From: a virus
Virus genome (UHGV): UHGV-1421865
Reading direction: 5' to 3' (one strand)
Length of the DNA stretch: 64,000 nucleotides
In this document: positions 3,697 to 63,987 of the stretch, in pieces
How the letters are laid out: every line of letters starts with the position of its first letter
Numbering within the stretch: the stretch's first letter is position 1
Notes under the pieces: generated by a model
Database searches by the model: none
What the model was told of the DNA's origin: nothing
The model's input: only the letters and a program-made list of their open reading frames with translations
Position numbers and translations under genes: made by a program

Positions 3697-4210
3697 AGTT
3701 TACAAATGTATAAGGTTGTTCGTTGTGCTCGTCGGCTGGATGTGACTCTCTGAATGTACACTCCCAATCATTGTAGTCGACTTTCGGGAAAAAAGTATCG
3801 GCTTCCAGTGCTACCCCTTCAATGTGTGTCAAACATAGTCTGTCTGCCAGGGGCAATGCCGCTTTGTAGATAGACGCGCCACCGATAATGAATACTCGGT
3901 CGTCATCGTACGCTCCTACTAATGCAGTCTCTAAAGAATGAAACAGATGAGTACCGGGCGGTGCTTCACGGAGCGAACGACTAACCACAAAATTACGACG
4001 ATTAGGAAGAGCACCGTTCGGTAGCGACTCGAAAGTCTTCCGTCCCATAATTACAGTGTGTCCCGAAGTGAGTGTTTTGAAACGTTGTAGATCGCCTCGC
4101 AAATGAAAAAGCATGTGACCTTCGAAGCCGATAGCTCTGTTCTCATCGAGAGCGCAAATTATTGTGATCATATTATATAAATTGAATCCACGATGTCGAT
4201 TTATTGACAT
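3680..4210 (-). CDS. dihydrofolate reductase
   Basis: MITIICALDENRAIGFEGHMLFHLRGDLQRFKTLTSGHTVIMGRKTFESLP matches the DHFR N-terminal signature; 176 aa. Confidence 0.8.
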   Translation of the reverse strand: MSINRHRGFNLYNMITIICALDENRAIGFEGHMLFHLRGDLQRFKTLTSGHTVIMGRKTFESLPNGALPNRRNFVVSRSLREAPPGTHLFHSLETALVGAYDDDRVFIIGGASIYKAALPLADRLCLTHIEGVALEADTFFPKVDYNDWECTFRESHPADEHNEQPYTFVNYARIK

Positions 4211-5476: not shown

Positions 5477-5612
5477 ATTTTTATAGTTTACAAAAATCTT
5501 ACAAAGTACTATTAAAGTCTTAAATTGATATTAAAGACCACAAGACTTACAAAGTACTACTAAATACTGTTGTAGACTACCGACGTAGACTACTGCTGTC
5601 TATATAAGACTA
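5477..5612. repeat. short-repeat-rich spacer (CTTACAAAGTACTA twice, TAGACTAC three times)
   Basis: Direct repeats visible in 136-nt non-coding stretch; same motif family as 59170..59300. Confidence 0.5.
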
Positions 5613-6371
5613 CTAGAGGCCACAGAGGGATCTCAATACGGTTTTGAATTCACCCGACATATTACATTTGTCACTGAGACACCAGTCGATGTAGCTCGGA
5701 TCGATTTTATGAATTTTTTGTACGTCACAACTCCGATATTTACCGAAATTGAACACCACTGCACCGTCGCGGAATGTCTTCAACGAATTGTCGGTAACGA
5801 TAATCGGTACCATTAAGTTATCGGTTTGCTCTTTTTGTTTATTAAATACTTCAAACGTAGCTTTCACGTCCGAAAGTGCGTCGTGGGCGTTTAGTCCGGA
5901 CTCTTCCATTGAATGGCCTGTGTATTTTTCATAAATACCTTCCAGGTCGGTCGGATTGATTCTGTTGTTAATCAAGAAAGAGTCGAAAATAACACGGTCA
6001 GTGAAATTAATAGACTTACCGTATCGTTTGAGTTCCTCGTTCAAGAATGGAATATCAAAGCTATTGCCATTGAATGTCAATACAGCATTCTCTTTCGGAT
6101 TACCGAAGAATTCAACAATTTGGTCTGCGACTTCTTCAAAATGGGGGTATTGTTCCAATTGTTTCGGTGTGATACCGTGTTTGAAATATGCACCCATACT
6201 AATCTTATAAGGTTGTACAGGTTGGATTTTAAGGTCGAGTTCATCAACTACCTCATTTGTTTTCGCATCGTATTTAATAGCCGAGAACTGGATAATCTGA
6301 TCCGTCTCACGATACAGTCCGGTACATTCAATGTCAAATGCGACGATATACTTGTAATTTTGACTTTTCAT
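5613..6371 (-). CDS. DnaQ-like 3'-5' exonuclease (DEDDh; T4 DexA-like)
   Basis: Exo I VAFDIECTG, Exo III H.A..D (HDALSDV). Confidence 0.7.
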   Translation of the reverse strand: MKSQNYKYIVAFDIECTGLYRETDQIIQFSAIKYDAKTNEVVDELDLKIQPVQPYKISMGAYFKHGITPKQLEQYPHFEEVADQIVEFFGNPKENAVLTFNGNSFDIPFLNEELKRYGKSINFTDRVIFDSFLINNRINPTDLEGIYEKYTGHSMEESGLNAHDALSDVKATFEVFNKQKEQTDNLMVPIIVTDNSLKTFRDGAVVFNFGKYRSCDVQKIHKIDPSYIDWCLSDKCNMSGEFKTVLRSLCGL

Positions 6372-7622: not shown

Positions 7623-7674
7623 AATTATTTTTCTATAGTATAGTACATTTGTACAGGACAAATCAAAACCTCTA

Positions 7675-7815: not shown

Positions 7816-7884
7816 TAAATCAGTGCATTTTACAGAATCTACACGTACAGATTTTTACATATACAACAAATATAAACCGACACA
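7815..7884 (+). promoter_or_regulatory. candidate promoter region upstream of giant gene (AAATCAGTGCA ... CAGATTTTTACATATA)
   Basis: Motif pair also present upstream of 26151 array. Confidence 0.3.
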
Positions 7885-10800: not shown

Positions 10801-13800
10801 TTGTTCGGTGTCATGCTACTGGGCTTTGTCGCTGCACTAACATGGATATATAAGAAGAACGCTACAGATATTGCGATGTCGATACCGACGGCACTAGCAC
10901 TAGGTATACTCGTTGCTATTTCGGGTGCTGTACTACTGGCAGGGGGCAAAGTCATTGCCGATAACAAAGACATGTGGTGGGCAGTTCCTGAATTTGCGGC
11001 GATAACGGTGTTGTTCGTCGGCGGCATGTCGACTGTAATGTACTTATTAAGTCAAATAAAGGGTAATCTAGTCCAAGGTGGTTTAGCGATGTTGGCTATC
11101 GCAGGCATCACATGGTTGATGGGTAAAGCCCTCCAAGAGGTTGCCCTGGTTGCTCGTATCGCATCCGTCGATGAGGTAAAGCAAGTAATGTTGATAGGGG
11201 GTGTCCTAATTACGGGTGTGACGGCTATCGCCGCTGCATTGGGCGCTATCATAACAAGCGGTGTCGGAGCACTACTGTTGGGGGCCGGTGCCGCCGCACT
11301 TGCTGGTGTAATCGGCTTTGTATTCGCTATCAGTGAAATGGTGCGAAATGTCGTAGTGACAGCTACAATACTAAACAATGCACCTGAAATAGACTTTGAT
11401 AAGGTAAATGGTCTCGTCACCGGTATGTTCGGCATCGCTAAAAATATGGTAGAGGCGGCACCGTGGACGCTGATGGTGAAAGCAAAACTTGTGAGTAGTA
11501 CCATAATGGATCTTATCGGATCACTGGGTACTGTTGCTCAAGTAGTAAAAGACTTGGCAGACTTGAAGATTCCTATATATAACGGTACTAAATTATCCGG
11601 TTATATTACAATAGGCGACGAAACATTCGCTACTGTTGCCTCTAATATAGAAAAAATAATAACGGCGGTAACACGACCGCTTGTCGATACGATAAAAAAG
11701 AACCCAGATCTGTTCGGCACAGGTGATTTCTTCTCGAACCCATTTGTCGATACACCGGCTGTAGCCGCTGCGAAGATGGTAGGACATGTCGGTAATTCGT
11801 TAAGTAAGGTGGCACAGGGTGTTAAAGACTTAGCCGAACTTAAGATTCCTGTATATAACGGTACTACATTAACTAAGTATGTTACATTAGGCAACGAGAC
11901 GTTCAGTAAGGTCTCTACAAACGTAAAGAGTCTTATACTGGCAGTAGCTCGTCCGATTGTGTCGACTATTAAAGACAATCCAGATCTATTCAAAGAAGGT
12001 GCATTCAACGACAGTCCGGCTGTGAATGCGGCGAAAGCCGTCGGTGAAATAGGAAAAACGTTGACGCCGTTGGCACAGGGTGTTCAGTTCTGGTCGATGT
12101 TGAAGGTACCCGTTTACGAAGGTGAAAAGATAAAAGAATACATCACATTAGGAGACGATCAATTTGCACAGGTTGCTATAAATATAAAACGTGTAATCGA
12201 AGCTGTTGGCGGCGCACTTGTCACCACAGTAAAAAACAGTACGTTTATATTCGGTAGCTGGAACGGTGGTCTGATTAGTTCAGATGCACCAGCGTTGAAT
12301 GCGTCCAAGTCTATCTTACTGATTTCCAATTCGTTATCTCCAATAGCACAATGTCTGGCATATTATGCGTCTGGTAAATTCCCTATTATAACAGGATATG
12401 ATGCTCATGGCAAACCGATAATCGACTTGTCGACTACGATAACACAGGACACGATGAAGGTTGCACAACAGAACATCAAAGACGTTCTCACAGCTATATT
12501 AGATGTATTAAAAGACGTACAAGGCGATTTCGGAGGCGACTGGTTCGGTAGCGGTTCGGATGTAGAAAGAGCAAGTAAGGCTGTTACAGAAGTAGCGAAT
12601 TCGTTAAAGACAATGGTCGACGTCGTCGGTAATATGAGTAAAACGGACTTTGCAACTGTTAATGCTCAAGTAAATACGACACAGAAAAACATCAAGAGTC
12701 TATTAGAAGGTGTTGTTAGTATATTCACATTATTTAATAGTACAGCTAAAGATGCCGAGGGTAAAGACATGACAAACGGTTGGTTGAGTCGTATTTGGAA
12801 TGGTAAGAATAAGACAATAGAACAATTCTTAAACGACACTGCCGGTGATATTAAGTCGGCTATTGGTGGTATAGTAGATGCTTCTAAGGAAATAAGTAAG
12901 TTATTTACTGAAATAAGTGATCTTCAAAAGACAATTACCGATAACCAGAATTCAGTTACTAGCTTTATTAAACAAACACCTGTTGAGAAGGGTAGTAAAG
13001 AGATGCAATATGTTATTGTCAAGAACATAGGTAATATACTGTCTACGTTCACTGCGATAGTTAGTAGTATAGACAAAGAAGAACTCTCAAGCAACGCTTC
13101 GGATATTAAAACGATTGCTAAAGACGTTGATACATTCACCGACGGGTTCGGAGATATTCTAAAGTCACTTACCAAGGCGATGCAGTCGACCAATAGTTTT
13201 GTGAGTGCCGATCGCAGTGCGTTGGGTAACTTACAAGCGGTATTAAATGAATACAAGAACAGTATGTTGAAAATGGTAACTGTATTTAAGGGTATCGGAT
13301 CTGTTTCGATGCGAGATATTGCAGACACCACAATGTACCAGGACAGAGCGTTTAATCTACTTATAAGAACAGCACAGAACGCTTCGAACGCCGGAGGTAA
13401 CGGTTATTCTATCCTCGCGAAGGGTATTCTCGAGATTGCTGAAGCCGAAGCACAGCTTGGTCAGAACCAGACATTCGCTCAGCACGCCGCTGTCATGGAA
13501 CGGTATGTACAGACTATCAATGCGGTGAAGGTCGGCAACTTAGACAGGCTGAACAGTTTCGCTATCAGCTTAAACAACCTGGCAGAAAAGTTAGGAAATG
13601 TCGATAAACTCACTCATGCGTTAGCTGTGCATTTGACCGGTGTTCTTAATAGACTGGTTAAGGAAATAGAACGTGCCGAAAAGACCATCAATAACGCCGA
13701 TAAGATGCAGGTTCGTCGCTTCGATATGATCAAGAAATCTGTTAAGGACGTACAAAAGATTATGGACAAGAAGCTCGTTGTAGAAGTGAACCAAGGCATG

Positions 13801-14022
13801 GCTGGCGATGCCACATTAGAAGGCGGGGGTGTAGACTACGGTGGTACATCTAATTCAAGCACGACGATGAACGTTTCGGCGCCGTCCGGTTCTAGCACCG
13901 ACACTACTCCTACCACTAATAAAGCAAATAAAAAGAACGGTAGTATAGGTCTTACAGAACTCAACGAAGCACTCAGTGCAAACAACGACGTACTTGTTCG
14001 TAAATTAAAAGGTCGAAAATAG
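7885..14022 (+). CDS. giant 2045-aa membrane-spanning virion protein (tape-measure or ejection-protein candidate)
   Basis: Single 6.1 kb ORF; coiled-coil-like N-terminal third; at least 10 hydrophobic helices with 4 repeats of SGA.LLAGGAILE.MG...LFGV.L.GFV..LTWIYKKNA.DI; three repeats of about 85 aa KDLADLKIPIYNGT... Confidence 0.5.
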   Translation: MARSLMDTIRQRGIRTPSGEEPGSEERPSLVDSIISGALVSLLYGVDVSPRDGDDLSRQSQALGSNRNSLYSLIADIKRTLESRNDGTQPTLVEFSPTTQSKMDNIVRSLDRLIDIKGVLDTTAVELEFIRRLLENSNVLSTLPDNRNSIQQLDIVLRSDGNGIDKLVELLDKLKNFNIDDETAQRQIVGLTEVARVVNTLSDVNINRDVQNNVSVLNDIIKNLSSIQIPSSDTKQKQNATDFGERITNIIKAINKIFEDDTFKNLANNIKSIEEIKHKNDRDTFGIGMIVGFLASLSAFIDNANVISKKKVNKGFNKVLVSMSSEIVDSLSKVAHNMGSAKNDILVVSEMFSGYASFVDTALKISDRSLVSLLLLHVKLKLSSSVFNKAFLELVTSIKDISIQMGTISAVTRSDYRQQINNIKETYSQFNDTIEAIGDVISIRSMIKTMLKLKAAKGTVDSVNKLLTEMFTVSIPPRDAMQDRLDYYIELATGLKLVFDELRLVNDAGIGRLDKSIKNLVGAVKGLDALDKVVGKKTGKNVGRFIRGFMHTLSTIDENAINNAEETSKTFALVVGVAVGALLVVSAASLLISWKAVVMFAAALPLFILGVSKAAAKMSGLDIDDRSMSAFTDFVLSSTIAMAVGSFLMRFVQLTDLTMFVGGLIAMTIGVGTAYRIISAIANADTIKNVEAFNQMVLMSGTVLVIGSYITQYTNKDGIYKFLGMLGGFTAGVSLIYLGLAKILKDDVLNVSEQFVVLVAVSGAIMFAGALVSKLIDPVGLITFTASLGAFLFAVSGIYILLSKKIGKEAVQIGRDFMVLLVVSGAILLGAGMLMPLVNKEGLITFTVTLGLFLLGVGLVYKIMGSVVDDALKHARDFTILIAVSGAVLLAGGAILEAMGPKGIAHVILFGVLLFGFVYGLTWIYKKNAKDITTAFGVATGLALLVAVSGAVLLAGGAILELMGKEGAWYTVLFGVMLLGFVAALTWIYKKNATDIAMSIPTALALGILVAISGAVLLAGGKVIADNKDMWWAVPEFAAITVLFVGGMSTVMYLLSQIKGNLVQGGLAMLAIAGITWLMGKALQEVALVARIASVDEVKQVMLIGGVLITGVTAIAAALGAIITSGVGALLLGAGAAALAGVIGFVFAISEMVRNVVVTATILNNAPEIDFDKVNGLVTGMFGIAKNMVEAAPWTLMVKAKLVSSTIMDLIGSLGTVAQVVKDLADLKIPIYNGTKLSGYITIGDETFATVASNIEKIITAVTRPLVDTIKKNPDLFGTGDFFSNPFVDTPAVAAAKMVGHVGNSLSKVAQGVKDLAELKIPVYNGTTLTKYVTLGNETFSKVSTNVKSLILAVARPIVSTIKDNPDLFKEGAFNDSPAVNAAKAVGEIGKTLTPLAQGVQFWSMLKVPVYEGEKIKEYITLGDDQFAQVAINIKRVIEAVGGALVTTVKNSTFIFGSWNGGLISSDAPALNASKSILLISNSLSPIAQCLAYYASGKFPIITGYDAHGKPIIDLSTTITQDTMKVAQQNIKDVLTAILDVLKDVQGDFGGDWFGSGSDVERASKAVTEVANSLKTMVDVVGNMSKTDFATVNAQVNTTQKNIKSLLEGVVSIFTLFNSTAKDAEGKDMTNGWLSRIWNGKNKTIEQFLNDTAGDIKSAIGGIVDASKEISKLFTEISDLQKTITDNQNSVTSFIKQTPVEKGSKEMQYVIVKNIGNILSTFTAIVSSIDKEELSSNASDIKTIAKDVDTFTDGFGDILKSLTKAMQSTNSFVSADRSALGNLQAVLNEYKNSMLKMVTVFKGIGSVSMRDIADTTMYQDRAFNLLIRTAQNASNAGGNGYSILAKGILEIAEAEAQLGQNQTFAQHAAVMERYVQTINAVKVGNLDRLNSFAISLNNLAEKLGNVDKLTHALAVHLTGVLNRLVKEIERAEKTINNADKMQVRRFDMIKKSVKDVQKIMDKKLVVEVNQGMAGDATLEGGGVDYGGTSNSSTTMNVSAPSGSSTDTTPTTNKANKKNGSIGLTELNEALSANNDVLVRKLKGRK

Positions 14023-14070: not shown

Positions 14071-14109
14071 CTTATTTCAGTTATATATCGACTAAACTCT
14101 AAACGTCCA

Positions 14110-14258
14110 AAAATCTCCTCTCTAACGCACGATTTTTCTTTGACCTTCACTAGGCTAAGCCTAGTATATTTGAGTGCGTTAGAGAGCCTTAAAAGTGCCT
14201 TTACGGGCTTGTAATGTATTTGTACGTCCCTGCCCAAAACAGAAAACGTACAAATCAG
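14110..14258 (-). repeat. conserved about 150-nt intergenic element, copy C
   Basis: CTCTCTAACGCAC...GTGCGTTAGAGAG perfect stem; inner hairpin CTAGGCTAAGCCTAG; TAtaTTTG motif preceded by TTTG 22 nt upstream. Confidence 0.6.
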
Positions 14259-14322
14259 GACAAAAAGTATGATTTATCATATAAAAACAGCTATTGTAAA
14301 TATACAAATATAGTAAATAAAT

Positions 14323-20602: not shown

Positions 20603-20684
20603 CTTATCATCATATAGTTTATACTTTATATAGTATAGTTTACAAGAAAAATCAGCTACTTAAAACATTGTTTTGGGTCTACTT

Positions 20685-20835
20685 TGACAGTTTCTATTTC
20701 GTGTACCGACGTGTACAAATCTAGAATCGTCATAAAGGCACTTTAGAGCTCCTGTATCGCGTCGAAATTATCTAGCCTTACTACAACCAAGGTCAACTAA
20801 TTTGTACGCGATACAGGAGAGATTTTTATTGAGTT
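20685..20835 (+). repeat. conserved about 150-nt intergenic element, copy D (core inverted relative to flanks)
   Basis: Flanks in the same orientation as copies E-H, but the core CCTGTATCGCGTC-gaaattatctagcctt...-CGCGATACAGGA matches copy A core as read on the opposite flank orientation. Confidence 0.55.
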
Positions 20836-24037: not shown

Positions 24038-24135
24038 TCTGATTCAACATTTCAATTTATTGAAATCAAAAATCCATCGCATGTGGATTTCACAATTAGG
24101 CTCTACAGAAATCTACTTCGTAGTTATTTAGTATA
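24038..24135. promoter_or_regulatory. spacer with three consecutive palindromes (TCAGAtacaaTCTGA, TTCAATttaTTGAA, AAATCCAtcgcatgTGGATTT)
   Basis: Between topoisomerase gene end and CHAP gene start; terminator and/or promoter. Confidence 0.35.
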
Positions 24136-25998: not shown

Positions 25999-26019
25999 AC
26001 ATTTATTTATAGCGATTTT

Positions 26020-26150
26020 TGTGAACTGAATCAGTGCATATCATGTAGTGAATCAACATGTTTACATACAAAAAATCAATGTAGCCAATATAATTAAAAT
26101 GTGAAATCCGTTATACACTGATTTTTACATATAAGAACAAAAGAATTCTA
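26020..26150 (+). promoter_or_regulatory. candidate promoter region for the plus-strand DUF285 array
   Basis: AATCAGTGCA at about 26027 and CTGATTTTTACATATA about 30 nt before ATG. Confidence 0.3.
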
Positions 26151-33920: not shown

Positions 33921-33958
33921 TTAAAAGACGATCTCAGCTATTTTGGGTCGTCTTTTTT
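33921..33958. terminator. hairpin terminator AAAAGACGATCtcagctattttgggTCGTCTTTTTTGT (left inverted-repeat arm)
   Basis: Stem plus T-run immediately after plus-strand gene stop; inverted copy at 34449..34492. Confidence 0.6.
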
Positions 33959-33982
33959 GTATCATTTTACATCGATTTGTAT

Positions 33983-34130
33983 GATTTCTGTTTTGTGTAC
34001 TGGTATACCAAACTATAACAAGCCCGTAAAGGCACTTTTTAGCCTCTCTAACGCACTCAAATGTACTTACCTTGGTACTACCAAGCCTCAACAAAAATCG
34101 TGCGTTAGAGGGGAGATTTTTGTGTGTTTT
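33983..34130 (+). repeat. conserved about 150-nt intergenic element, copy E
   Basis: GTTTCTGTTTTGTGTACTGGTAT...CGTAAAGGCACTTTTTAGCC-TCTCTAACGCAC-[CCTTGGTAgTACCAAGG]-GTGCGTTAGAGG-GGAGATTTTTGTG. Confidence 0.65.
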
Positions 34131-34296
34131 CAAAATCAACCTACCTATTATGATGTTGGTTGTGTCACAACGTATAATAAAATACATATAAAGCGTACTT
34201 TACGTATATTATATGATACCTTATGGAAAATCACATTAACTTTATTAGTACAGTATCTTTAGTACTGTTTGGTAGCAGTTTAGTGTGATTTTGTCG

Positions 34297-34445
34297 GTTT
34301 CTGTTTTGTGTACTGGTATACCAAACTATAACAAGCCCGTAAAGGCACTTTTTAGCCTCTCTAACGCACTCAAATGAAGTGACCTTAGTAGTACCAAGGT
34401 CAAAGAAAAATCGTGCGTTAGAGGGTAAATTTTGTAGGTTTTTGA
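34297..34445 (+). repeat. conserved about 150-nt intergenic element, copy F (tandem with E)
   Basis: Same architecture; inner hairpin GACCTTaGTAgTACcAAGGTC. Confidence 0.65.
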
Positions 34446-34448
34446 TTT

Positions 34449-34492
34449 AGCAAAAAAAAAGACGACCTCAAAATAACTGAGATCGTCTTTTC
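34449..34492. terminator. hairpin terminator (right inverted-repeat arm)
   Basis: AAAAAGACGAcctcaaaataactgagaTCGTCTTTT; reverse complement matches 33921..33958 including the loop. Confidence 0.6.
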
Positions 34493-41506: not shown

Positions 41507-41867
41507 GTTGATTAAATAGTTGATTTGTGTATTATATAGTCTATTTTATGCTGAGAATCAGTGCATGTGACGTCCAGATTATTAACTATATTTTTGATAC
41601 AGATATGGACATCAAAAACGCACCGAAAAGTAAAATGTCGTTATATAAAGAAAAATATGAATACAACGGTAGTAACAAGTACGACTATGCCGCGAACGGG
41701 GTACTCACCAAAACACTTCCGAAGATACTATTTAAGGGCAATTCCTTGTTCGTTACATTCTTACAACTCATTGACCTTCGTATTATCAACCTACTAAAAT
41801 ACATCGACGAACTTAAAAACTTCAAGTCTGTTTGATACTATTTTGCTCGCATTTTGGTCTGATTTGC

Positions 41868-42020
41868 GCGGTTTCTGTTTTGTGTACTGGTATGCAAATA
41901 CCCAACGTCCACGTAAAGGCACTTTTTAGGCTCTCTGGCGCACTCAAATTAGTTGGGCTTAGTATGTGTAAGGTCCAACAAAAATCGTGCGTTACAGGGC
42001 AAATTTTCTTAGGTTTGGAC
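41868..42020 (+). repeat. conserved about 150-nt intergenic element, copy G
   Basis: Stem GCTCTCTGGCGCAC/GTGCGTTACAGGGC with G-T positions; inner hairpin TTGGgCTTA...TAAGgtCCAA. Confidence 0.6.
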
Positions 42021-45387: not shown

Positions 45388-45600
45388 AATAGAATAGAGT
45401 TATGCTCTTGTAAGAGCGGTGAAACATTATCTTTTTTGATTACAATATAAAGATAGCAATTTATTTTGAACAAATCACCTGTTATATAGACTTTAACGCT
45501 AGTTAGACTACCGTGAGGTATCTTAACACCAGTAAATCAACTATGTCGATTCATTGACATTAAACCAGTGTAGTTGGTTCAACGTCACTCGACTCTGTCT
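45388..45600 (-). repeat. conserved upstream cassette (copy 3)
   Basis: ATGTTTCACCGCTCTTACAAGAGC (GCTCTTgtaAGAGC hairpin) plus GTTCAAAATAAATTGCTATCTTTATATTGTAATC. Confidence 0.55.
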
Positions 45601-47280: not shown

Positions 47281-47312
47281 ATTTATATTATAGCATTATT
47301 CGCCCGTATAAA

Positions 47313-48029
47313 TCAGTAAGGCATCGTCGGAAATTGTTTATAAAATACTGTATAAACATCTAACTTCGTATTGTCAAATATGCCGTCCATTCTCTTGATA
47401 TTCGATATATCCCAATTTTCAAGACCCTTACCTCTAAACAGTATTGCACCTTCAAACATCCAACGCATGTCCACTACTTTTGATACATTCCATCTTGAGA
47501 TATTACCGTTAAATACCTTCGCTTTGTTGAACATCATGTACATGTACATTACATTACCGGTATCCCAATTTTCAACACAGATTCCAGTGAACGATACTGC
47601 GCTACAAAACATACGAGACATATTCGTCACATTACCGACGTCCCATTTTGAAAGATCACCGTTGAATGACATTGCATCCTCAAACATCTGACTCATGTTC
47701 CATACATTACCGACGTCCCAAGTTGAGATGTTACCAATAAACATGTCACAACCATGGAACATTCCACTCATGTCTTCAACATTCGAAGTGTCCCACTCGT
47801 CGATTTCGACATTTCTAACACCAAGCCCCTTGAACAACTCAGACATATCGGTGATCAACGACGTATCGATGAAATTAAGATCGGCATCCGGCCCTTCCCT
47901 CACCAGTTCACATATTATCAACTCACGTAGTTCAAGTTTCGATGTTGGTTGGGATCGCTGTAAAGATTTAGACTGTGATGTAATACGCAGTCTACTGGGT
48001 CTATTATGTATAGCCATGTCAAACAGCAC
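47313..48029 (-). CDS. DUF285-repeat protein (N-module type MAIHNRPSRLRITS)
   Basis: N-module plus about 8 repeats. Confidence 0.6.
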   Translation of the reverse strand: MLFDMAIHNRPSRLRITSQSKSLQRSQPTSKLELRELIICELVREGPDADLNFIDTSLITDMSELFKGLGVRNVEIDEWDTSNVEDMSGMFHGCDMFIGNISTWDVGNVWNMSQMFEDAMSFNGDLSKWDVGNVTNMSRMFCSAVSFTGICVENWDTGNVMYMYMMFNKAKVFNGNISRWNVSKVVDMRWMFEGAILFRGKGLENWDISNIKRMDGIFDNTKLDVYTVFYKQFPTMPY

Positions 48030-53625: not shown

Positions 53626-53747
53626 ACTTACATATATAATATAGACTGTTATGGTAACAAAATCAGTCTACACCAGTAGTAAAATCAGTGAGTTGTTTGT
53701 TGCTTACATATATAATATAGCGGACTTTGTGAGATAAATCAGTACAA
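53626..53747. repeat. two direct repeats of about 45 bp (CTTACATATATAATATAG...AAATCAGT) in upstream region
   Basis: Copies at about 53626 and about 53702; related to TATAGCGAACTTTGTGAGCAAAATCAGTGCA at 7020. Confidence 0.5.
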
Positions 53748-56414: not shown

Positions 56415-56903
56415 TCATAAAAAGAACCAAACATATATGAAAGTGGCCCAAGTAAGTATACCGATAATCGACTGAACGATAGACATAAACAATGACGTTT
56501 TGTTGGTCGGCTTTATCAGACTGGGTAGTACTAATTGATTACCTTTATACCATTCAGGTAGTTTGTCAAGCGAACAACAAAGATCGAACATGTTACTCAT
56601 GTCTTTCACATTGGATGTGTTCCAAGAACTCAAATCACAATTGAACTCTGTACGAAAAGCAAACATACAAGACATGTTCGTCACATTAGAGACATTCCAC
56701 TGGTCTATCTTGATGTTTCTGACACTGATATACGGATTACAAAACAAAAACGACATGTCGCTGATCTCTTCTGTGTCGATATGATTCAGATCAGCATCTG
56801 GTCCTTGACGTTTCAGTTCTTGTTCTATTATAGACTGTAGTTGTTCTTTCGATGTAGGTCTTATAACAGACGACTTCGCCTGTGAAGTGATGTGTAATGC
56901 CAT
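56415..56903 (-). CDS. DUF285-repeat protein with C-terminal TM anchor
   Basis: MALHITSQAKSS...; tail MSIVQSIIGILTWATFIYVWFFL. Confidence 0.6.
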   Translation of the reverse strand: MALHITSQAKSSVIRPTSKEQLQSIIEQELKRQGPDADLNHIDTEEISDMSFLFCNPYISVRNIKIDQWNVSNVTNMSCMFAFRTEFNCDLSSWNTSNVKDMSNMFDLCCSLDKLPEWYKGNQLVLPSLIKPTNKTSLFMSIVQSIIGILTWATFIYVWFFL

Positions 56904-57906: not shown

Positions 57907-58467
57907 TTAGCACATTTCGAGTTCTTCGAAGATTCTTTCGTAGTCTGTTTTATCTTTAAGACTAGATACGTTCCAATTACGGATAGTATTTACGTCAAAA
58001 CAATAGTTTTCTTCACAAAAAATACCGTCCATGTATTCTACTTTGGACACGTCCCAGTGGCACAAATTAGAATCAAACAGTCCACAGCAATAAAACATAC
58101 TGCGCATGTCCTTCACGTTGCTGACATTCCAGTCGTACAAGTCGGCTCTAAATTCAACATCCTGGAACATACCTTGCATATTCGTGACGTTACTGACGTC
58201 CCACTTATCAATCAGTAGATAGAAACCTTGAAAGTCGTCGAATTTGATAACAAGATCCTTATTCTCCCACGAAATCGCCTGATTGAACACATAAGACATG
58301 TCCGTGATCTTCGATACATCGATGAAGTTGAGATCGATAGTTACAAGACCATATCTGTCATCGTCCTCTTCGATATAGTCATACGCCTCATCGAGTTGAC
58401 GTTGCGTTTCATCTTTGATGATTTGAATGAGCTCTTCTCTGGTTTGTGGTTGATACTTAAATTCCAT
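57907..58467 (-). CDS. divergent DUF285-family protein
   Basis: Degenerate N-module (DLNFIDVSKITDMSYVF) plus 3 repeats WDVSNVTNMQGMF. Confidence 0.5.
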   Translation of the reverse strand: MEFKYQPQTREELIQIIKDETQRQLDEAYDYIEEDDDRYGLVTIDLNFIDVSKITDMSYVFNQAISWENKDLVIKFDDFQGFYLLIDKWDVSNVTNMQGMFQDVEFRADLYDWNVSNVKDMRSMFYCCGLFDSNLCHWDVSKVEYMDGIFCEENYCFDVNTIRNWNVSSLKDKTDYERIFEELEMC

Positions 58468-58563
58468 TGTCGTACATTACTTTAGGCGTTCTCACTTTGT
58501 TTTCTTATATTATATATAGCTTACTTGTACGTACAAATCAATGTGGCAGACTAAAGATCTACA

Positions 58564-59145
58564 TCAGAGATTTAGTTGTTTACAAGCATCGGCTAGAATT
58601 GAGTTGATTCTACTTCGAACCGACGAGCATTCAGCATTAGACACCGCTCGTTCCATTGTACGCAATAAGGATTCGACTTCGGAACACGTCTTGTTGAATA
58701 GATGCTCTACATCGTCGTCGTTTTGAATGTTCTCGTCTAGATCGTAGTATTTGTTCAAAAACTCGTCGTAATCGTCTTCGGCTTTATTATAAAGCAATAT
58801 ATTTTGTGGACTGTATACAATAGCCGTATTTCGTATATGCTCAGCTACCGGATCCAGTTCATCGCCGCTAATAGTGTACGAATCGTTCAACTTAGCGAAG
58901 TCAACTACATTGTATTCTACCTCAAATGCCGCATTAGAACGACGCAGGTCGATAAACGACTCACAAAATACATCCTCGTCGTCGACATCGCAACAAAGAT
59001 GATATATGTAATCTCCGAACTTAAAGTATACATCGTTTTTGAGCAAATAGTCAACACCGTCGACATGAACCAAGATACCACGATACTTATATTGAACAGT
59101 TTTCTCCTCCTTGTCGGTGAGATACCTAAATGTAATCGTACTCAT
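58564..59145 (-). CDS. hypothetical acidic protein
   Basis: 193 aa ORF. Confidence 0.4.
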   Translation of the reverse strand: MSTITFRYLTDKEEKTVQYKYRGILVHVDGVDYLLKNDVYFKFGDYIYHLCCDVDDEDVFCESFIDLRRSNAAFEVEYNVVDFAKLNDSYTISGDELDPVAEHIRNTAIVYSPQNILLYNKAEDDYDEFLNKYYDLDENIQNDDDVEHLFNKTCSEVESLLRTMERAVSNAECSSVRSRINSILADACKQLNL

Positions 59146-59169
59146 ATTTTTACTTTTTACACGTTATAA

Positions 59170-59300
59170 CACTATTTTAGACACTACTGTAGACTACACA
59201 AGACAATACAGTAGACCCAACAAGACTGTACAAGACAATACAGTAGACCCAACAAGACTGTACAAGACTCGACAAGACTACACAAGATCAAAAAATATCT
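59170..59300. repeat. iteron-like cluster: ACAAGAC(T/A) repeated at least 7 times, including a perfect 31-bp tandem duplication
   Basis: caagacaatacagtagacccaacaagactgta occurs twice in tandem; motif TAGACTAC also present. Confidence 0.7.
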
Positions 59301-59374
59301 GCCAAGCAAAATAAATAATAGAATTTACTTTACCGTAAAACACAGCTATTTCTTGTCCATCAACTACAGCTCTA

Positions 59375-59430
59375 TATAATGTCAATAAATTGACATAGTC
59401 AATTCAATGTCAATAAATCGACATCGTGAT
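59375..59430. promoter_or_regulatory. two copies of palindrome ATGTCAATAAAT(T/C)GACAT
   Basis: Perfect 18-bp palindrome plus imperfect second copy 22 bp away, in a 450-nt non-coding region. Confidence 0.5.
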
Positions 59431-59598
59431 TCAATGAACTATCGTCGGTACCGGATAATTCGTTCAAATCTTGTAATGACGATTCCATAGTCTCCAAGAA
59501 CTCGTCTACGTCCGAACATGTTCTATTAAACAAATTCTCAAATTGTTTCTGAAAATTATTGTAGTACTCTTTAATAAATATAATCGATAGTTCTCATA

Positions 59599-59994
59599 TC
59601 ACAGGAAATAATCGTTTATCACTAAGTCATAATAATCTGGATAAACACAAATTTGTCTGAAGGTATCATTATGACCAACTTGTTCGCCGCTTTCATCAAA
59701 AATCAAATAGCTGAAATCTTCATCGCTATATACTAGCTTACAATCCATGTAATTACCATCGTGTTTAATATAAAAATTGATAGTATCATTGGAGTAAATT
59801 TCCCTACCGTCTTCTAATTCCGATACTAGTATACCAATAGTTTTGTTGTCGTTTACGTCAACTACAACATCTAATCCATTGTATTTATCTTCAATGAAAT
59901 GATATTCGTATTCAGTTTCAGAACTGTATACCTTAACTATTTGACCAAAGTAACTTTTGGAAAAATCACTATAACGATATTTGATATGTAACAT
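59599..59994 (-). CDS. hypothetical protein
   Basis: 131 aa ORF. Confidence 0.4.
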   Translation of the reverse strand: MLHIKYRYSDFSKSYFGQIVKVYSSETEYEYHFIEDKYNGLDVVVDVNDNKTIGILVSELEDGREIYSNDTINFYIKHDGNYMDCKLVYSDEDFSYLIFDESGEQVGHNDTFRQICVYPDYYDLVINDYFL

Positions 59995-60077
59995 AATTAG
60001 GCTGTTTTATGCTGTATAAATAGCAACATTTACAGACAAAATCAGTGTACCGTATAGATTCCTACACATATTTCTAC

Positions 60078-60228
60078 AGTTTCTATTTCGCGTACTGGTA
60101 TATACAAACATAGAATCGACGTAAAGGTACTTTTTAGCCTCTCTGACGCACTCAAATGCACTGACCTTGGTACTACTAAGGTCAAACAAAAATCGTGCGG
60201 TACAGGGCAAATTTTTGTACGTTTTGAA
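60078..60228 (+). repeat. conserved about 150-nt intergenic element, copy H
   Basis: CAGTTTCTATTTCGCGTACTGGTAT...CGTAAAGGTACTTTTTAGCC-TCTCTGACGCAC-[GACCTTgGTAcTACtAAGGTC]-GTGCGGTACAGGG-CAAATTTTTGT. Confidence 0.6.
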
Positions 60229-60240
60229 CAGCACAACAAG

Positions 60241-60612
60241 TTACTTGAAATTCGGACGGAACTTAGGTTGCATTTTATAACAACCCAAAAACGCATACTC
60301 ATGTTTTGTAACATTACTAACGTCCCATTTAGATAGGTCGCAACTGAATTTATCTTGATTCATAAACATAAAAGACATATCTGTAACATTACTAACGTCC
60401 CACTCGTCGATTTTAATGTTTTCGATATGAAGTAGGTCGAACAACTTCGACATATCTGTGATCTCTGATGTATCAATGAAATTTAAGTCGGCATCCAGCC
60501 CCTGTCGTTTTAGTTCTTTGTCTATGATGACTTTCAGTTCGCTATACGATGTAGGACGTACACTTAGGGATTTGCTCTTAGATGTTATTTTAAGCCGTTC
60601 GTTGATGTACAT
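60241..60612 (-). CDS. DUF285-repeat protein (short)
   Basis: MYINERLKITSKSKSL... plus 2 repeats. Confidence 0.55.
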   Translation of the reverse strand: MYINERLKITSKSKSLSVRPTSYSELKVIIDKELKRQGLDADLNFIDTSEITDMSKLFDLLHIENIKIDEWDVSNVTDMSFMFMNQDKFSCDLSKWDVSNVTKHEYAFLGCYKMQPKFRPNFK

Positions 60613-60617
60613 TGAAA

Positions 60618-61400
60618 TTAGTTTTTTATTTTAGGACGGAATCGTTGAGGTTGATTATCACAACCGTAGAACATTTTCTTTTTACTATCTCTATGTATTT
60701 TTGATAAGTCCCAATGTGATAAATTACATCTAAATTTTTTACAGCCGTAGAACATCAATAATGTATCACGAACATTGGTCGCAATCGTTCCCCATTTACT
60801 TAAATCTACATTTAGATTTTCACAGTTTTCAAACATTCTAGACATGTTTTCTACATTGGACACGTCCCAATTTTCTAGTCCTTTGCCTTCAAAGTTTTTA
60901 CAAATAGCAAACATACTGGACATGTTTTCAACATTTGATACATTCCATTTATCTAAACTAATACCTGCAAATTTTGAACAACCATTAAACATACTGGACA
61001 TGTTTTCAACATTTGATACATTCCATTTATCTAAACCAATACCTTCGAATGCTGAACACTTAAAAAATATAATTGACATATCCTTAACCTTAGACACATC
61101 CCAACCGGACAAGTCACAATTGAAGTCACTACAAAGTTTGAACATGCCGCGCATATTTGTCACATTAGATGTGTCCCATTTGTCTATCTTAATGTTTCCA
61201 ATCTTATTCCACCAAAACAGCATAGACATATCTGTAATACGCGATGTATCAATATGATTCAAATCGGCATCCGGACCCTGACGTTCTATTTCGTCTTTTA
61301 TTATATCTATAAGCTCCTCTTTTGTAGTAGGCGTTTTTGTTATTGATTTAGTATTAGACGTAATCTTTAATCGTTCATTTATGAAATGTGAAAATGACAT
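60618..61400 (-). CDS. DUF285-repeat protein
   Basis: MSFSHFINERLKITSNTKSI... plus about 8 repeats. Confidence 0.6.
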   Translation of the reverse strand: MSFSHFINERLKITSNTKSITKTPTTKEELIDIIKDEIERQGPDADLNHIDTSRITDMSMLFWWNKIGNIKIDKWDTSNVTNMRGMFKLCSDFNCDLSGWDVSKVKDMSIIFFKCSAFEGIGLDKWNVSNVENMSSMFNGCSKFAGISLDKWNVSNVENMSSMFAICKNFEGKGLENWDVSNVENMSRMFENCENLNVDLSKWGTIATNVRDTLLMFYGCKKFRCNLSHWDLSKIHRDSKKKMFYGCDNQPQRFRPKIKN

Positions 61401-61409
61401 AATATAGTG

Positions 61410-62186
61410 TTATTTTGTTTTCGCTCTAAATCGTTGCGGTTGATTATCACAACCATAGAACACTTTCTTTTTATTATTCGGATTTATTTTAGATAAGTCC
61501 CAGTGTGATAAATTACATCTAAGTTTTCTACAATTATAGAACATCGATGATATGTTTCTAACATTAGAGACGTCCCATTTTGAAAGATCTGTATCGAGAT
61601 TTTCACATACGTTGAACATATTCTCCATATTAGTCACATTAGATACGTTCCAATTTCCTAATCCGTCACCGACAAGATTTTCACAACCATCGAACATACC
61701 TAACATATTTTTAACGTTAGAAACGTCCCACTTACCTAAACTATTACCTTCAAAAATGTCACAATCTAAAAACATATAAGCCATATTAGTCACATTAGAG
61801 ACGTCCCAACCAGATAACTCACCATTAAAGTTCTTACAACTGTCGAACATTGAGTTCATCTTGGTTACTTTTGAAGTGTCCCATTTAGATAACGCAGTTT
61901 GTCCTGTAAATTCCTCACAACCATAAAACATCGATGCCATATCTGTAACATTAGATGTGTCCCACTTGTCAACTTGGATATTTCTTATATCGAGATCCTC
62001 AAATAACGCAGACATGTCTGTTATATTCGACGTATCGATGCAGTTCAAATCGGCATCTGGACCCTGACGTTTTAGTTCTTGTTCTATAATAGATCTAAGT
62101 TCGTCTTTTGTTTCAGCTGTTCGTGTAGCTGACTTGCTATTAGATGTTATTTTAAGCCGTTCTGTCACGAAATTTTGTAGGTCCAT
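61410..62186 (-). CDS. DUF285-repeat protein
   Basis: MDLQNFVTERLKITSNSKSA... plus about 8 repeats; C-terminus similar to 60618..61400. Confidence 0.6.
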   Translation of the reverse strand: MDLQNFVTERLKITSNSKSATRTAETKDELRSIIEQELKRQGPDADLNCIDTSNITDMSALFEDLDIRNIQVDKWDTSNVTDMASMFYGCEEFTGQTALSKWDTSKVTKMNSMFDSCKNFNGELSGWDVSNVTNMAYMFLDCDIFEGNSLGKWDVSNVKNMLGMFDGCENLVGDGLGNWNVSNVTNMENMFNVCENLDTDLSKWDVSNVRNISSMFYNCRKLRCNLSHWDLSKINPNNKKKVFYGCDNQPQRFRAKTK

Positions 62187-63280: not shown

Positions 63281-63451
63281 TTACTGAACTACAGAGTCAC
63301 AAAGTACGGTATCACATTGTACACTGTCGAGACTGTCGACTTGTACAGTGTCAATAGAATCAACGTCAGTAGTTTTCTTCGCGGTGCCGTTGCATGCCAC
63401 GAATGATGATGCCATTACCATAGCAATGGCTGCGATAACTAAACTTTTCAT
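63281..63451 (-). CDS. possible small lipoprotein (56 aa, manually found)
   Basis: MKSLVIAAIAMVMASSFVAC signal with lipobox-like FVAC. Confidence 0.35.
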   Translation of the reverse strand: MKSLVIAAIAMVMASSFVACNGTAKKTTDVDSIDTVQVDSLDSVQCDTVLCDSVVQ

Positions 63452-63615
63452 TTTTGTTTTTATTATAGATTTGTTAAAAATTTTGATACTTACTTGTATA
63501 TTCTTGAACAGACTGTATAAGACTGTTAAATTTGAAGTAGTTATATATAGATGACTATTAAAGCCTATCGACTAAATTGTGCTTATGAAGACTGTAGTAG
63601 TGTGTGTAGACTAGA

Positions 63616-63987
63616 CTATTTCCGACTATTAAAAACGTCGACGAGGATTTTCCCTAATCTAACCGCCTTGTTAGCGACGTCTCTGTAATACTTTTCGTCG
63701 TTCAGTCGATCTTTGTCCGCTAAATTCGTAAATATAGTAGCTGCGACCTGCAGGGGCTTATCTATATTCGGATTTAAAGATTTAATAGCCTGTACGATTT
63801 CTTCTGAACTTGTGTCGGACGTTGTTGTACTGCTTTTATCAGAAGAATCAGTCGAACTTTGTCCTTTTGTGTCGATAGAGCGTACAATGTCGCCTAATTT
63901 ATTTACCAATTCGTCTAATTTGTCAACTATAGGTGCTATATCGACCGGATCGTGTTGTTGTATTACTAGTTTGTTTGCTGTCGGCAT
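63616..63987 (-). CDS. hypothetical Ser/Thr-rich protein
   Basis: 123 aa ORF. Confidence 0.35.
   Translation of the reverse strand: MPTANKLVIQQHDPVDIAPIVDKLDELVNKLGDIVRSIDTKGQSSTDSSDKSSTTTSDTSSEEIVQAIKSLNPNIDKPLQVAATIFTNLADKDRLNDEKYYRDVANKAVRLGKILVDVFNSRK

What the first reader, a model, noticed from the sequence alone, without database searches (positions are those of the whole stretch)
59146..59598. 450-nt non-coding region dense in iterons, a perfect 31-bp tandem duplication and twin palindromes
ACAAGAC(T/A) occurs at least 7 times within about 110 bp, with caagacaatacagtagacccaacaagactgta exactly duplicated in tandem. About 80 bp further on, the palindrome ATGTCAATAAATTGACAT occurs twice about 22 bp apart. 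Related TAGACTAC and AAGACTG motifs cluster at 5477-5612 and 63480-63620. Iteron arrays next to operator-like palindromes are classic for replication origins or repressor-controlled switch regions. This is the longest gene-free stretch in the window.
Basis: seen in the sequence. Interest (0 to 1): 0.6.

Follow-up and report, generated by a model that had tools for sequence, protein, structure and literature searches.

The report
Lineage-specific iteron-like repeat array in phage
Between two genes of an uncultivated ~220-kb virus of mouth bacteria lie ten evenly spaced copies of a short DNA word and a decayed gene fragment; the repeats look like protein docking sites that expanded in this strain only, and nothing marks them as a conserved replication origin.

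Summary
The repeats are real, non-random and reproduced exactly in an independent assembly. Ten AGAC-led units run from 59179 to 59290 at 10 or 12 bp spacing (mean 10.67 bp, about one helical turn). Seven positions are invariant (AGAC…ACA), the 3-nt spacer varies, and a 32-bp block is exactly duplicated.

The 453-bp gap is not simply non-coding. Positions 59399-59593 on the minus strand are a start-less remnant of the C-terminal domain of the neighbouring 193-aa gene family. One of the two palindromes lies inside this remnant and the other just past its stop.

Relatives at about 81% nucleotide identity keep the flanks. One has about two units, no palindromes and a broken remnant. Another has one partial unit and a 55-bp spacer.

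Two other loci in the window (about 5.5 and 63.5 kb) carry related AGWCT units, again with very different copy numbers between relatives (from none to at least 8).

No GC-skew inflection, exceptional AT-rich element, Rep-like gene or conservation supports an origin.

Best reading: a dispensable, expandable array of phased protein-binding sites upstream of a gene, grown by tandem duplication. The binding protein and its effect are unknown. An origin of the T4 oriE kind is not excluded.

The parts
58564..59145 (-). 193-aa gene directly downstream of the array in the direction of transcription. It belongs to a family found only in this phage group. The model shows a beta-rich N-terminal domain and a C-terminal helical bundle. 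Function unknown.
   Evidence: ORF list. 18 homologues at 56-100% identity, all from metagenomes. AlphaFold2 model with pLDDT 81. No PDB fold match with E<=0.001. No Pfam hit.
59146..59178 (-). Proximal leader of the 193-aa gene (…TAGTGTTATAACGTGTAAAAAGTAAAAATATG on the minus strand). It is conserved in relatives.
   Evidence: Alignment A1 of the window, L114 and L003. No Shine-Dalgarno sequence, as for all 94 ORFs.
59179..59290 (.). Array of 10 units, AGAC-NNN-ACA(GT), at 10 or 12 bp spacing (mean 10.67 bp), ending in a degenerate eleventh unit AGATCAAAAA at 59285. The core is ACAAGAC or GTAGAC. The leftmost unit is the palindromic GTAGACTAC.
   Evidence: AGACNNNACAAGAC with at most 1 mismatch: 13 matches against 1.3 expected, 7 of them here. 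Core versus spacer statistics. Absent or minimal in L114 and L003. Identical in L124.
59199..59262 (.). Two exact head-to-tail copies of the 32-bp block CAAGACAATACAGTAGACCCAACAAGACTGTA (12+10+10 bp, about 3 helical turns). This is the most recent duplication step.
   Evidence: Exact matches at 59199 and 59231. TRF period 32.
59291..59378 (.). Moderately AT-rich spacer. The left part (…GATCAAAAAATATCTGCCAAGCAAAA) is conserved in L114 and L003. The rest is present in L114 and absent in L003.
   Evidence: Alignment A1. Duplex stability at the 81st-93rd percentile, not an outlier.
59371..59426 (+). Two 28-bp direct repeats, each carrying an 18-bp palindrome (59379-59396 exact, 59407-59424 with one mismatch). 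They are copies of a conserved phage element, ATGTCAATAAATCGACATCGTKGATTCAAT. Here they lie on the strand opposite to the genes.
   Evidence: (9 matches against 0.22 expected). Together they can fold into one long hairpin (-22.2 kcal/mol, z -2.8). No U-tract terminator. Deleted in L114 and L003.
59399..59593 (-). Start-less 64-codon open frame (ELSIIFIKEYYNNFQKQFENLFNRTCSDVDEFLETMESSLQDL…). It is a remnant of the C-terminal helical domain of a 193-aa-family paralogue. It is out of frame with the 131-aa gene and lies just after that gene's stop.
   Evidence: Three-frame translation. BLASTP against the 193-aa protein, E=2e-6. E=3e-11 against the same module in L010. Broken by a 21-bp and a 1-bp deletion in L114 and absent in L003.
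59599..59994 (-). 131-aa gene upstream of the gap, with its own promoter-like TGATTT-N15-CTATTTA box in the next intergenic region.
   Evidence: It ends with the identical sequence …AACGATTATTTCCTGTGA in L114 and L003.
63510..63618 (.). Related AGACT cluster upstream of a 56-aa lipoprotein-like gene (63281-63451, minus strand). Read on the gene strand, the units are ACA(A)G(A/T)CT(A/T)Y, with 2 tandem copies here.
   Evidence: Relatives carry 4 units (L114, L116) or at least 8 perfect ACAAGTCTAT copies running to the contig end (L003).
5516..5613 (.). Related cluster (GTAGACTAC twice, AAGACTAC, ACAAGACT) between the 3'-5' exonuclease gene and the PD-(D/E)XK gene. It includes an extra ~82 bp lying between two copies of the exonuclease gene's last four codons.
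   Evidence: The spacer length ranges from 19 bp (L120, no motif) to 136 bp (window) in alignment A6.
4181..4210 (-). Sense-strand copy of the palindromic element, about 22 nt upstream of the probable DHFR start. Other copies lie at 45543-45560, with a variant at 24049-24066.
   Evidence: The DHFR Pfam match begins at residue 14 of the ORF.

Best explanation
The 453-bp gap is a composite of two things.

(1) The right part, about 200 bp, is the decaying 3' remnant of a paralogue of the neighbouring 193-aa gene. Two antisense copies of a conserved palindromic phage element lie at its end.

(2) The left part is an array of ten phased binding sites. The core is ACAAGAC / AG(A/T)C, with one site per helical turn, so all sites face the same side of the DNA. 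It sits 35-145 bp upstream of the start codon of the 193-aa gene.

Shown: the array grew in this lineage by tandem duplication from a seed of one or two units that relatives still carry. The same motif family has expanded or contracted independently at two other intergenic sites of the replication and nucleotide-metabolism module.

Inferred: the units are docking sites for an unidentified DNA-binding protein, phage- or host-encoded, that loads cooperatively along one face of the helix. This would modulate transcription of, or through to, the downstream gene. The array is a dispensable, copy-number-tunable cis-regulatory element and not an essential one.
For: Shown:
- 10 units at a mean spacing of 10.67 bp, against a maximum of 6 in shuffles.
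- Seven invariant core positions against three near-saturated spacer positions, P about 3e-6 under uniform change. This argues for constraint on the core and against a purely neutral satellite.
- Position directly upstream of a start codon, as at the two other clusters.
- The flanks are conserved in L114 and L003 while the unit number is 10, about 2 and about 1.
- Motif units persist at the 63.5-kb locus in four relatives, with copy number 2, 4, 4 and at least 8.
- The 5.5-kb spacer ranges from 19 to 136 bp and is built from TAGWCT/GTAGATCT units.
- The palindromic TAGWCTA falls in intergenic DNA in 8 of 14 cases, although intergenic DNA is only 10% of the sequence (p=2e-5). It also occurs in pairs in intergenic DNA just outside the window.
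- The array is identical in an independent sample, so it is stable within the strain.

Inferred: protein binding and a regulatory effect.
Against: - No binding protein was identified. None of the 25 (of 29) matched Pfam families that one search lists for the 92 window ORFs is an HTH or other recognisable DNA-binding family. Only 64 of about 223 kb were examined.
- The promoter class I could define (TGATTY-N15-CTATAWW, 8 of 8 hits upstream of genes) is absent between the array and the 193-aa gene. The gene may therefore be co-transcribed with the 131-aa gene, and the array would then be intercistronic and transcribed.
- Relatives manage with one or no unit (L003, L120), so any function is dispensable.
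- The extended unit ACAAGWCT lies on opposite strands, relative to the downstream gene, at the 59.2- and 63.5-kb loci.
- TAGWCTA is not over-represented in total count (14 against 10.4 expected).
Confidence: 0.4

Rival explanations
1. The array is a functionless variable-number tandem repeat. Replication slippage or unequal recombination expanded a 10-bp unit in slack intergenic DNA left by the decay of a paralogous gene. The shared AGWCT motif only reflects that the seeds resemble a common promoter-proximal sequence (…AG(A/T)CTATA…).
For: - An exact 32-bp duplication.
- A perfect run of at least 8 ACAAGTCTAT copies in L003 at another locus, ending the contig.
- Copy numbers from none to 10 between relatives.
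- Short-read contigs break inside the array (L002 and L125).
- The neighbouring sequence is a decaying pseudogene.
- Many putative -10-like boxes read AG(A/T)CTATA, and most array units differ from AGACTATA by one base.
Against: - All 9 differences between independent units fall in the 3 spacer columns and none in the 7 core columns.
- Related units recur at three separate loci and in several lineages.
- The array is identical in independent samples of the strain, so it is not hypermutable on that time scale.
Confidence: 0.3
2. The array is an iteron-type replication origin, one of several redundant origins, of a phage with a T4-like replisome. An initiator binds the phased repeats and opens the adjacent AT-rich DNA. 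[quoted passage not shown]
For: - Phased direct repeats with a conserved core next to a moderately AT-rich stretch and hairpin-forming palindromes.
- Location inside the replication and nucleotide-metabolism module: family B polymerase, topoisomerase II, SSB, 5'-3' exonuclease, DHFR, thymidylate synthase, ligase and RNR.
- Three clusters would fit multiple origins. T4 origins share no common motif, and the role of the oriE iterons is itself undefined (PMC3016281).
Against: - Relatives with conserved flanks have only about 2 or 1 units and no palindromes. In contrast, the T4 oriE iterons are reported as conserved at syntenic sites in related phages.
- No GC-skew inflection. The skew stays negative from 54 to 64 kb.
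- The AT-rich flank is not exceptional and is partly pseudogene DNA.
- No Rep or initiator family is nearby.
- The 193-aa protein has no matching DNA-binding fold.
Confidence: 0.15
3. The array acts at the RNA level. If the 131-aa and 193-aa genes are co-transcribed, the array becomes a (G)UCUUGU-repeat intercistronic RNA and the palindromes become hairpins. These would bind a protein or set processing, stability or translational coupling.
For: - No promoter of the TGATTY-N15-CTATAWW class lies between the two genes.
- L003 has only a 55-nt spacer, which is compatible with co-transcription.
- Sense-strand copies of the palindromic element sit 22-32 nt before start codons elsewhere.
- An S1-domain protein is encoded nearby.
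Against: - The array strand has no significant fold of its own (z -1.9 as DNA).
- No Rfam match.
- The palindromes here are antisense to the genes.
- The helical-turn periodicity is a DNA property, not an RNA one.
Confidence: 0.07

Closest known systems
[quoted passage not shown]
   Same: Evenly spaced short direct repeats in an intergenic region of a large lytic phage with a T4-type replication apparatus. The binder and role are not established there either.
   Different: The T4 iterons are reported as conserved in syntenic regions of related phages. Here the array is nearly absent from relatives. No origin activity, skew shift or repE-like genes are known here.
Plasmid and phage iteron origins (R6K gamma, RK2 oriV, P1 oriR, lambda ori)
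   Same: Tandem direct repeats with a conserved core, about one per one or two helical turns, next to AT-rich DNA.
   Different: Those iterons are 17-22 bp and lie beside or within the gene of their Rep initiator, and they are essential and conserved. Here the units are 10-12 bp, no Rep gene was found, and the array is dispensable in relatives.
Phased activator sites of OmpR/PhoB-type winged-helix regulators (pho boxes) (from my own knowledge)
   Same: Direct repeats at 10-11 bp centre-to-centre spacing immediately upstream of a gene, all on one helix face.
   Different: Pho boxes usually come as 2-4 repeats placed next to a -35 position. No such regulator or fixed promoter spacing was found here, and ten copies is unusually many.
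parC centromere of plasmid R1 (two sets of five 11-bp repeats bound by ParR) and tubC-type centromeres (from my own knowledge)
   Same: About ten 10-12-bp direct repeats in helical phase upstream of a gene. The several dispersed clusters recall the dispersed centromere sites of phage N15.
   Different: No ParM/ParR, TubZ/TubR or ParA/ParB genes are adjacent. The genome looks like that of a lytic jumbo phage.
Mycobacteriophage stoperators (asymmetric 13-bp repressor sites scattered through intergenic DNA) (from my own knowledge)
   Same: A short motif recurs in short intergenic regions of one phage genome.
   Different: Stoperators are single dispersed sites, 20-30 per genome, in one orientation. 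Here the motif is concentrated in a few tandem arrays, and outside the arrays its count is close to chance.
Promoter-proximal VNTRs / contingency loci, and the rapidly evolving perfect tandem repeats of Borg elements (from my own knowledge)
   Same: Tandem units next to gene starts whose copy number differs between close relatives, including perfect arrays (L003).
   Different: No within-strain polymorphism was seen (identical in two samples). The units here have diverged spacers around a fixed core and are not perfect copies.

Membership tests
Iteron-type replication origin | Several direct repeats with a conserved core, regularly spaced | tested here: met
   10 units at a mean spacing of 10.67 bp, with 7 invariant core positions.
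Iteron-type replication origin | Adjacent, markedly AT-rich DNA-unwinding element | tested here: inconclusive
   59280-59339 is 75% AT and ranks at the 93rd percentile of instability. Twelve or more other sites in the window are less stable.
Iteron-type replication origin | Cognate initiator (Rep) gene next to or overlapping the iterons | tested here: not met
   The flanking genes have no Pfam family. The 193-aa protein model has no DNA-binding fold match. None of the 25 (of 29) matched Pfam families listed for the 92 window ORFs is a Rep family.
Iteron-type replication origin | Conservation of the element in related genomes | tested here: not met
   L114 has about 2 units and L003 one partial unit, with both flanks conserved.
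Iteron-type replication origin | Strand-composition (GC-skew) inflection at the site | tested here: not met
   The skew stays negative on both sides, and the cumulative curve falls steadily from 54 to 64 kb. Only 64 of about 223 kb were seen.
Iteron-type replication origin | Replication actually starts there | not testable with these tools
   This needs marker-frequency or 2D-gel data.
Transcription-factor binding-site array (operator/activator sites) | Position in the upstream region of a gene | tested here: met
   The array ends 34 bp from the ATG of the 193-aa gene. The two other clusters are also directly upstream of starts.
Transcription-factor binding-site array (operator/activator sites) | Motif recurs upstream of other genes and is enriched in intergenic DNA | tested here: met
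   The three top AGAC windows are all intergenic. TAGWCTA is intergenic in 8 of 14 cases, p=2e-5, with pairs in L126. The total count is not enriched.
Transcription-factor binding-site array (operator/activator sites) | Fixed geometry relative to a core promoter | tested here: not met
   No TGATTY-N15-CTATAWW promoter lies next to the array. Distances from the motif to the ATG range from 14 to about 100 nt.
Transcription-factor binding-site array (operator/activator sites) | An identifiable cognate DNA-binding protein | tested here: inconclusive
   No HTH or wHTH Pfam family appears among the 25 of 29 matched families listed for the window ORFs. About 70% of the genome and the whole host were not examined.
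Variable-number tandem repeat | Head-to-tail copies, including exact recent duplicates | tested here: met
   Exact 32-bp pair. TRF arrays.
Variable-number tandem repeat | Copy-number differences between related genomes | tested here: met
   10, about 2 and about 1 units at this locus. 2, 4, 4 and at least 8 units at 63.5 kb. Spacer of 19-136 bp at 5.5 kb.
Variable-number tandem repeat | Polymorphism within a strain or population | tested here: not met
   L124, from a different sample, is identical over the 453 bp. Only assemblies were compared, not reads.
Intrinsic terminator (for the twin palindromes) | GC-rich stem followed by a U-run | tested here: not met
   The consensus scan found no terminator at 59370-59430. 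The stems are AT-rich and are followed by UAUAUAG.
Type II/III partition centromere (parC/tubC) | Adjacent adaptor and NTPase genes (ParR/ParM, TubR/TubZ) | tested here: not met
   No such families in the flanking genes or among the families listed for the window ORFs.

The most novel reading that the evidence does not exclude
The AGWCT arrays could be a family of expandable iteron clusters that act as redundant, fast-turning-over replication origins of an uncultivated jumbo phage of Bacteroidota. Alternatively they could be protein-titration arrays that set replication timing. Copy number would then be a tunable trait. This would also give a comparative handle on the still unexplained iterons of T4 oriE.
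Probability: 0.15. Interest if true: 0.55.

Novelty: new member of a known kind. Interest (0 to 1): 0.3.

Why it matters
If the units are real binding sites, this phage group provides a natural copy-number series of a phased cis element: from none to at least ten copies, at three loci, across related genomes. That series could be used to find the binding protein. It could also be used to ask how site number tunes expression or replication in jumbo phages of oral Bacteroidota, for which no regulatory element has been characterised. As it stands, this is a well-documented but ordinary case of a lineage-specific iteron-like repeat beside a decaying gene. It is also a caution that 'iterons plus palindromes plus a gene-free gap' does not by itself identify an origin.

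Tried and rejected
- **Known phages.** BLASTN of 58000-61000 against INPHARED phages found no match.
- **IMG/VR.** The exact 32-mer, the 193-aa protein and the exonuclease gave nothing.
- **Generic array pattern.** AGTCT(N5)x4 in IMG/VR returned 103 stretches, but tblastn found no homologue of the array's flanking genes in them. The only hits were weak ones to the methyltransferase and the head-closure-like ORF, so these are unrelated 10-bp satellites.
- **GTDB genomes.** No relative of the 193-aa family.
- **RNA families.** Only a sub-threshold miRNA model on the palindromes. No tRNAs.
- **Sigma-70 promoter and terminator scan.** At background level.
- **TATATAAC as a general promoter box.** Rejected: 16 sites, only 3 within 60 nt of a start codon.
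- **A real gene across the array.** The ORFs of 67, 41 and 32 aa over it are translations of the repeat, and they vanish in relatives that lack the array.
- **The 131-aa gene plus the remnant as one frameshifted gene.** Rejected as the current state: L003 has the identical stop and no remnant.
- **The 193-aa protein as an initiator or regulator.** No support from Pfam or from Foldseek against the PDB.
- **Packaging site.** Not pursued. No terminase gene lies nearby, and the region sits in the replication module.
- **Not attempted.** DNA curvature modelling, because I had no validated parameter set to hand.

Full report
**Context**

The window is part of a phage genome of about 223 kb, assembled repeatedly from human oral metagenomes. 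It encodes a T4-like set of replication and nucleotide-metabolism genes:
- family B DNA polymerase with a separate 3'-5' exonuclease
- two topoisomerase II subunits
- an SSB
- a 5'-3' exonuclease
- DHFR, thymidylate synthase and a ligase
- RNR genes just beyond the window

None of 94 ORF upstream regions has a Shine-Dalgarno motif, which is typical of Bacteroidota hosts (my own knowledge). From 44.5 to 64 kb all the ORFs I called are on the minus strand. The region of the finding therefore lies downstream of a 131-aa gene (59599-59994) and upstream of a 193-aa gene (58564-59145).

**Checking the observation**

The array is real.
- AGAC begins at 59179, 59191, 59201, 59213, 59223, 59233, 59245, 59255, 59265 and 59275.
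- The spacings are 12,10,12,10,10,12,10,10,10 bp, with a mean of 10.67 bp.
- The window average is 0.53 AGAC per 120 bp. The maximum in 200 Markov shuffles was 6, against 10 observed.
- TRF finds a period-32 array with 95% matches. A 32-bp block, not 31, is exactly duplicated at 59199 and 59231.
- ACAAGACW occurs six times, not seven.

The palindromes:
- ATGTCAATAAATTGACAT is exact at 59379-59396.
- The second copy (59407-59424) has one mismatch.
- The two are 28 bp apart start to start, within a 28-bp direct repeat.

An independent assembly from another sample (L124) is identical across all 453 bp, so nothing here is an assembly artefact.

**The gap is not purely non-coding**

On the minus strand, positions 59399-59593 form an open frame of 64 codons with no ATG. 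Its only usable start is an internal TTG, which gives the 44-aa ORF listed. The frame begins just after the stop of the 131-aa gene, in another reading frame.
- Its product (…YYNNFQKQFENLFNRTCSDVDEFLETMESSLQDL…) matches the C-terminal helical domain of the adjacent 193-aa protein at E=2e-6.
- It matches the equivalent module in a distant relative at E=3e-11.
- In relative L114 this stretch carries a 21-bp deletion, a 1-bp deletion and a deletion of about 52 bp.
- In relative L003 it is absent altogether. There the 131-aa gene ends with the identical …TTCCTGTGA, and only 55 bp separate it from the next ATG.

I conclude that this is a decaying remnant of a paralogue. One palindrome lies inside its last codons and the other lies just past its stop.

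**Comparative anatomy of the array**

L114 and L003 are about 81% identical to the window in the flanking genes. Alignment A1 shows both intergenic flanks conserved: …TTTTGCTTGGCAGATATTTTTTGATCTTGTGTAG… and …TAGTGTTATAACGTGTAAAAAGTAAAAATATG. Between the flanks:
- the window has ten units
- L114 has about two (TCTTGTGTAGTCTACAGTAGTGACT)
- L003 has one partial unit

So the array is a lineage-specific expansion from a pre-existing seed. The exact 32-bp pair is the latest step.

The units are nevertheless not simple copies. Among six independent units, all 9 differences fall in the 3 spacer columns and none in the 7 core columns (AGAC…ACA). The probability of this under uniform change is about 3e-6. 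That pattern is what selection on a binding core would produce.

**The motif family elsewhere**

At 63.5 kb, upstream of a 56-aa lipoprotein-like gene, units ACA(A)G(A/T)CT(A/T)Y occur:
- twice in the window
- four times in L114 and in L116
- at least eight times as perfect ACAAGTCTAT copies in L003, where the contig ends inside the array

The central base flips between A and T. This makes AGACT and AGTCT reverse complements of each other, so the core is quasi-palindromic.

At 5.5 kb, the spacer between the exonuclease and PD-(D/E)XK genes is:
- 19 bp in L120, with no motif
- 54 bp in L117
- 81 bp in L121-L123
- 123 bp in L119
- 136 bp in the window

It is built from GTAG(A/T)CTAC and GTAGATCT units and local duplications.

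The palindromic heptamer TAGWCTA is intergenic in 8 of 14 cases, although intergenic DNA is only 10% of the sequence (p=2e-5). It also occurs in pairs in intergenic DNA just beyond the window. Its total count is not above chance.

About 20 kb of additional flanking genome contain no further large array.

**Tests of the origin idea**

- GC skew shows no inflection at 59 kb.
- The AT-rich flank is at the 93rd percentile of duplex instability, and at least a dozen sites in the window are less stable.
- The flanking genes have no Pfam family.
- The 193-aa protein models confidently (pLDDT 81) as a beta domain plus a helical bundle, with no PDB fold match at E<=0.001.
- None of the 25 (of 29) matched Pfam families that one search lists for the 92 window ORFs is a Rep or HTH family.
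- The array and the palindromes are missing from relatives.

The closest precedent is T4 oriE. It has evenly spaced 12-nt repeats that are conserved in related phages, but their role is still undefined (PMC3016281). T4-type phages use several non-homologous, partly redundant origins. Non-conservation therefore weakens the origin reading but does not exclude it.

**Transcription signals**

A promoter-like class, TGATTY-N15-CTATAWW, gives 8 hits. All are on the gene strand, 7-111 nt upstream of start codons. A close variant (…CTATTTA) precedes the 131-aa gene. None lies between the array and the 193-aa gene.

The two genes may therefore be co-transcribed. That leaves an RNA-level role or a passive intercistronic state open.

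Many -10-like boxes read AG(A/T)CTATA. Most array units differ from AGACTATA by one base, so the seeds of the arrays may derive from such boxes. This last point is inference.

**The palindromes**

They belong to a conserved element, ATGTCAATAAATCGACATCGTKGATTCAAT.
- It has five copies in the window against 0.22 expected.
- It has 18/18-identical cores in relatives whose 193-aa-family protein is only about 60% identical (L005, L007, L009).
- Three of the copies (4210 and the variant at 24066 in the window, plus the one shared by L005, L007 and L009) are on the gene strand, 22-32 nt before a start codon.
- At the finding, both copies are on the opposite strand.
- Together they can form one long hairpin (-22.2 kcal/mol, z -2.8).
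- They lack a U-tract and match no Rfam family.

Their function is unknown. An operator, or a hairpin in the 5' leader, are the obvious candidates.

**Verdict**

The interpretation as an origin or a repressor switch is not supported by any independent criterion I could test.

The most likely reading (about 0.4) is a dispensable array of phased protein-binding sites upstream of the 193-aa gene, grown by tandem duplication in slack DNA left by gene decay. The alternatives are:
- a functionless VNTR (about 0.3)
- an oriE-like origin (about 0.15)
- an RNA-level element (about 0.07)

This is a new member of a known kind, with low-to-moderate interest.

Noticed in passing
window 7141-7245, 7652-7823, 14098-14266, 20610-20744, 33950-34134, 34268-34457, 41838-42019, 60015-60225: A dispersed intergenic repeat family of about 150-200 bp with at least 8 copies. 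The conserved core reads …TTTGAGTGCGTTAGAGAGGCTAAAAAGTGCCTTTACGGGC…ACCAGTACACAAAACAGAAAC…CAAATCAG. Copies often lie where the gene strand switches. One copy lies about 420 bp to the right of the finding, and further copies occur in relatives and in L126. There is no tRNA or Rfam match. It may be a promoter- or terminator-bearing cassette like the PeSL cassettes of T4-type phages (that comparison is from my own knowledge).
   Followed up: partly
window, 27 of the 92 ORFs scanned (e.g. 45-392, 4210-4719, 56415-56903, 57907-58467, 60241-62186): 27 of the 92 ORFs scanned match Pfam DUF285 (BspA-like leucine-rich repeat). This is an extraordinary paralogue expansion for a phage, and it probably causes many of the assembly breaks.
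   Followed up: partly
window 4181-4210 (-), 45543-45560, 24049-24066; L005:3031-3059, L007:2884-2912, L009:996-1024: The palindromic element ATGTCAATAAATCGACATCGTKGATTCAAT is conserved base for base in relatives whose 193-aa-family protein is only about 60% identical. Where it precedes a gene it lies 22-32 nt before the start codon (e.g. DHFR). It is a candidate operator or leader hairpin.
   Followed up: partly
window minus strand: 7023-7050, 20627-20654, 26006-26033, 41533-41560, 47287-47315, 53638-53665, 53714-53741, 58513-58540: A promoter-like motif, TGATTY-N15-CTATAWW. All 8 hits are on the gene strand, 7-111 nt upstream of start codons. It resembles neither the sigma-70 consensus nor the Bacteroidota -33/-7 consensus exactly. 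The box CTATAAATA recalls the T4 late promoter TATAAATA (my own knowledge).
   Followed up: partly
L009:4774-5877 and L010:1247-2290: In two assemblies of a distant relative, a 266-aa hexapeptide-repeat (bactofilin-like) gene is followed, in frame after a TAG codon, by the same 'YYDNF…FNRTC…' helical module as the remnant in the finding. This could be a recent nonsense mutation, or TAG read-through or recoding.
   Followed up: no
L003:1-90: At least 8 perfect tandem copies of ACAAGTCTAT lie upstream of the 56-aa gene, and the 54-kb contig ends inside the array. The true copy number is unknown.
   Followed up: partly
window 63281-63451 (-): A 56-aa ORF with a lipoprotein-type signal (MKSLVIAAIAMVMASSFVAC…) directly downstream of an AGWCT cluster. 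It is conserved in L003, L114 and L127. It may be a superinfection-exclusion-type lipoprotein, which is a guess.
   Followed up: no
window 7885-14022 (+): A 2045-aa ORF with no PHROG family and only sub-threshold Pfam hits. Relatives encode ORFs of 1949-2255 aa. It could be a virion protein or a giant polymerase. Not examined.
   Followed up: no
L128:14472-15611 (about 4-5 kb left of the window start): An IS605 OrfB/TnpB (Cas12f-like) gene, split into 284-aa and 93-aa ORFs, inside the phage genome. It is followed by gaps of more than 1 kb in which no gene was called.
   Followed up: no
window 5474-5625: The exonuclease gene's last four codons occur twice, 82 bp apart (TGTGGCCTCTAG … TGTGGTCTTTAA). 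This shows that the motif-rich insert arose by a duplication that re-created the gene's end.
   Followed up: yes
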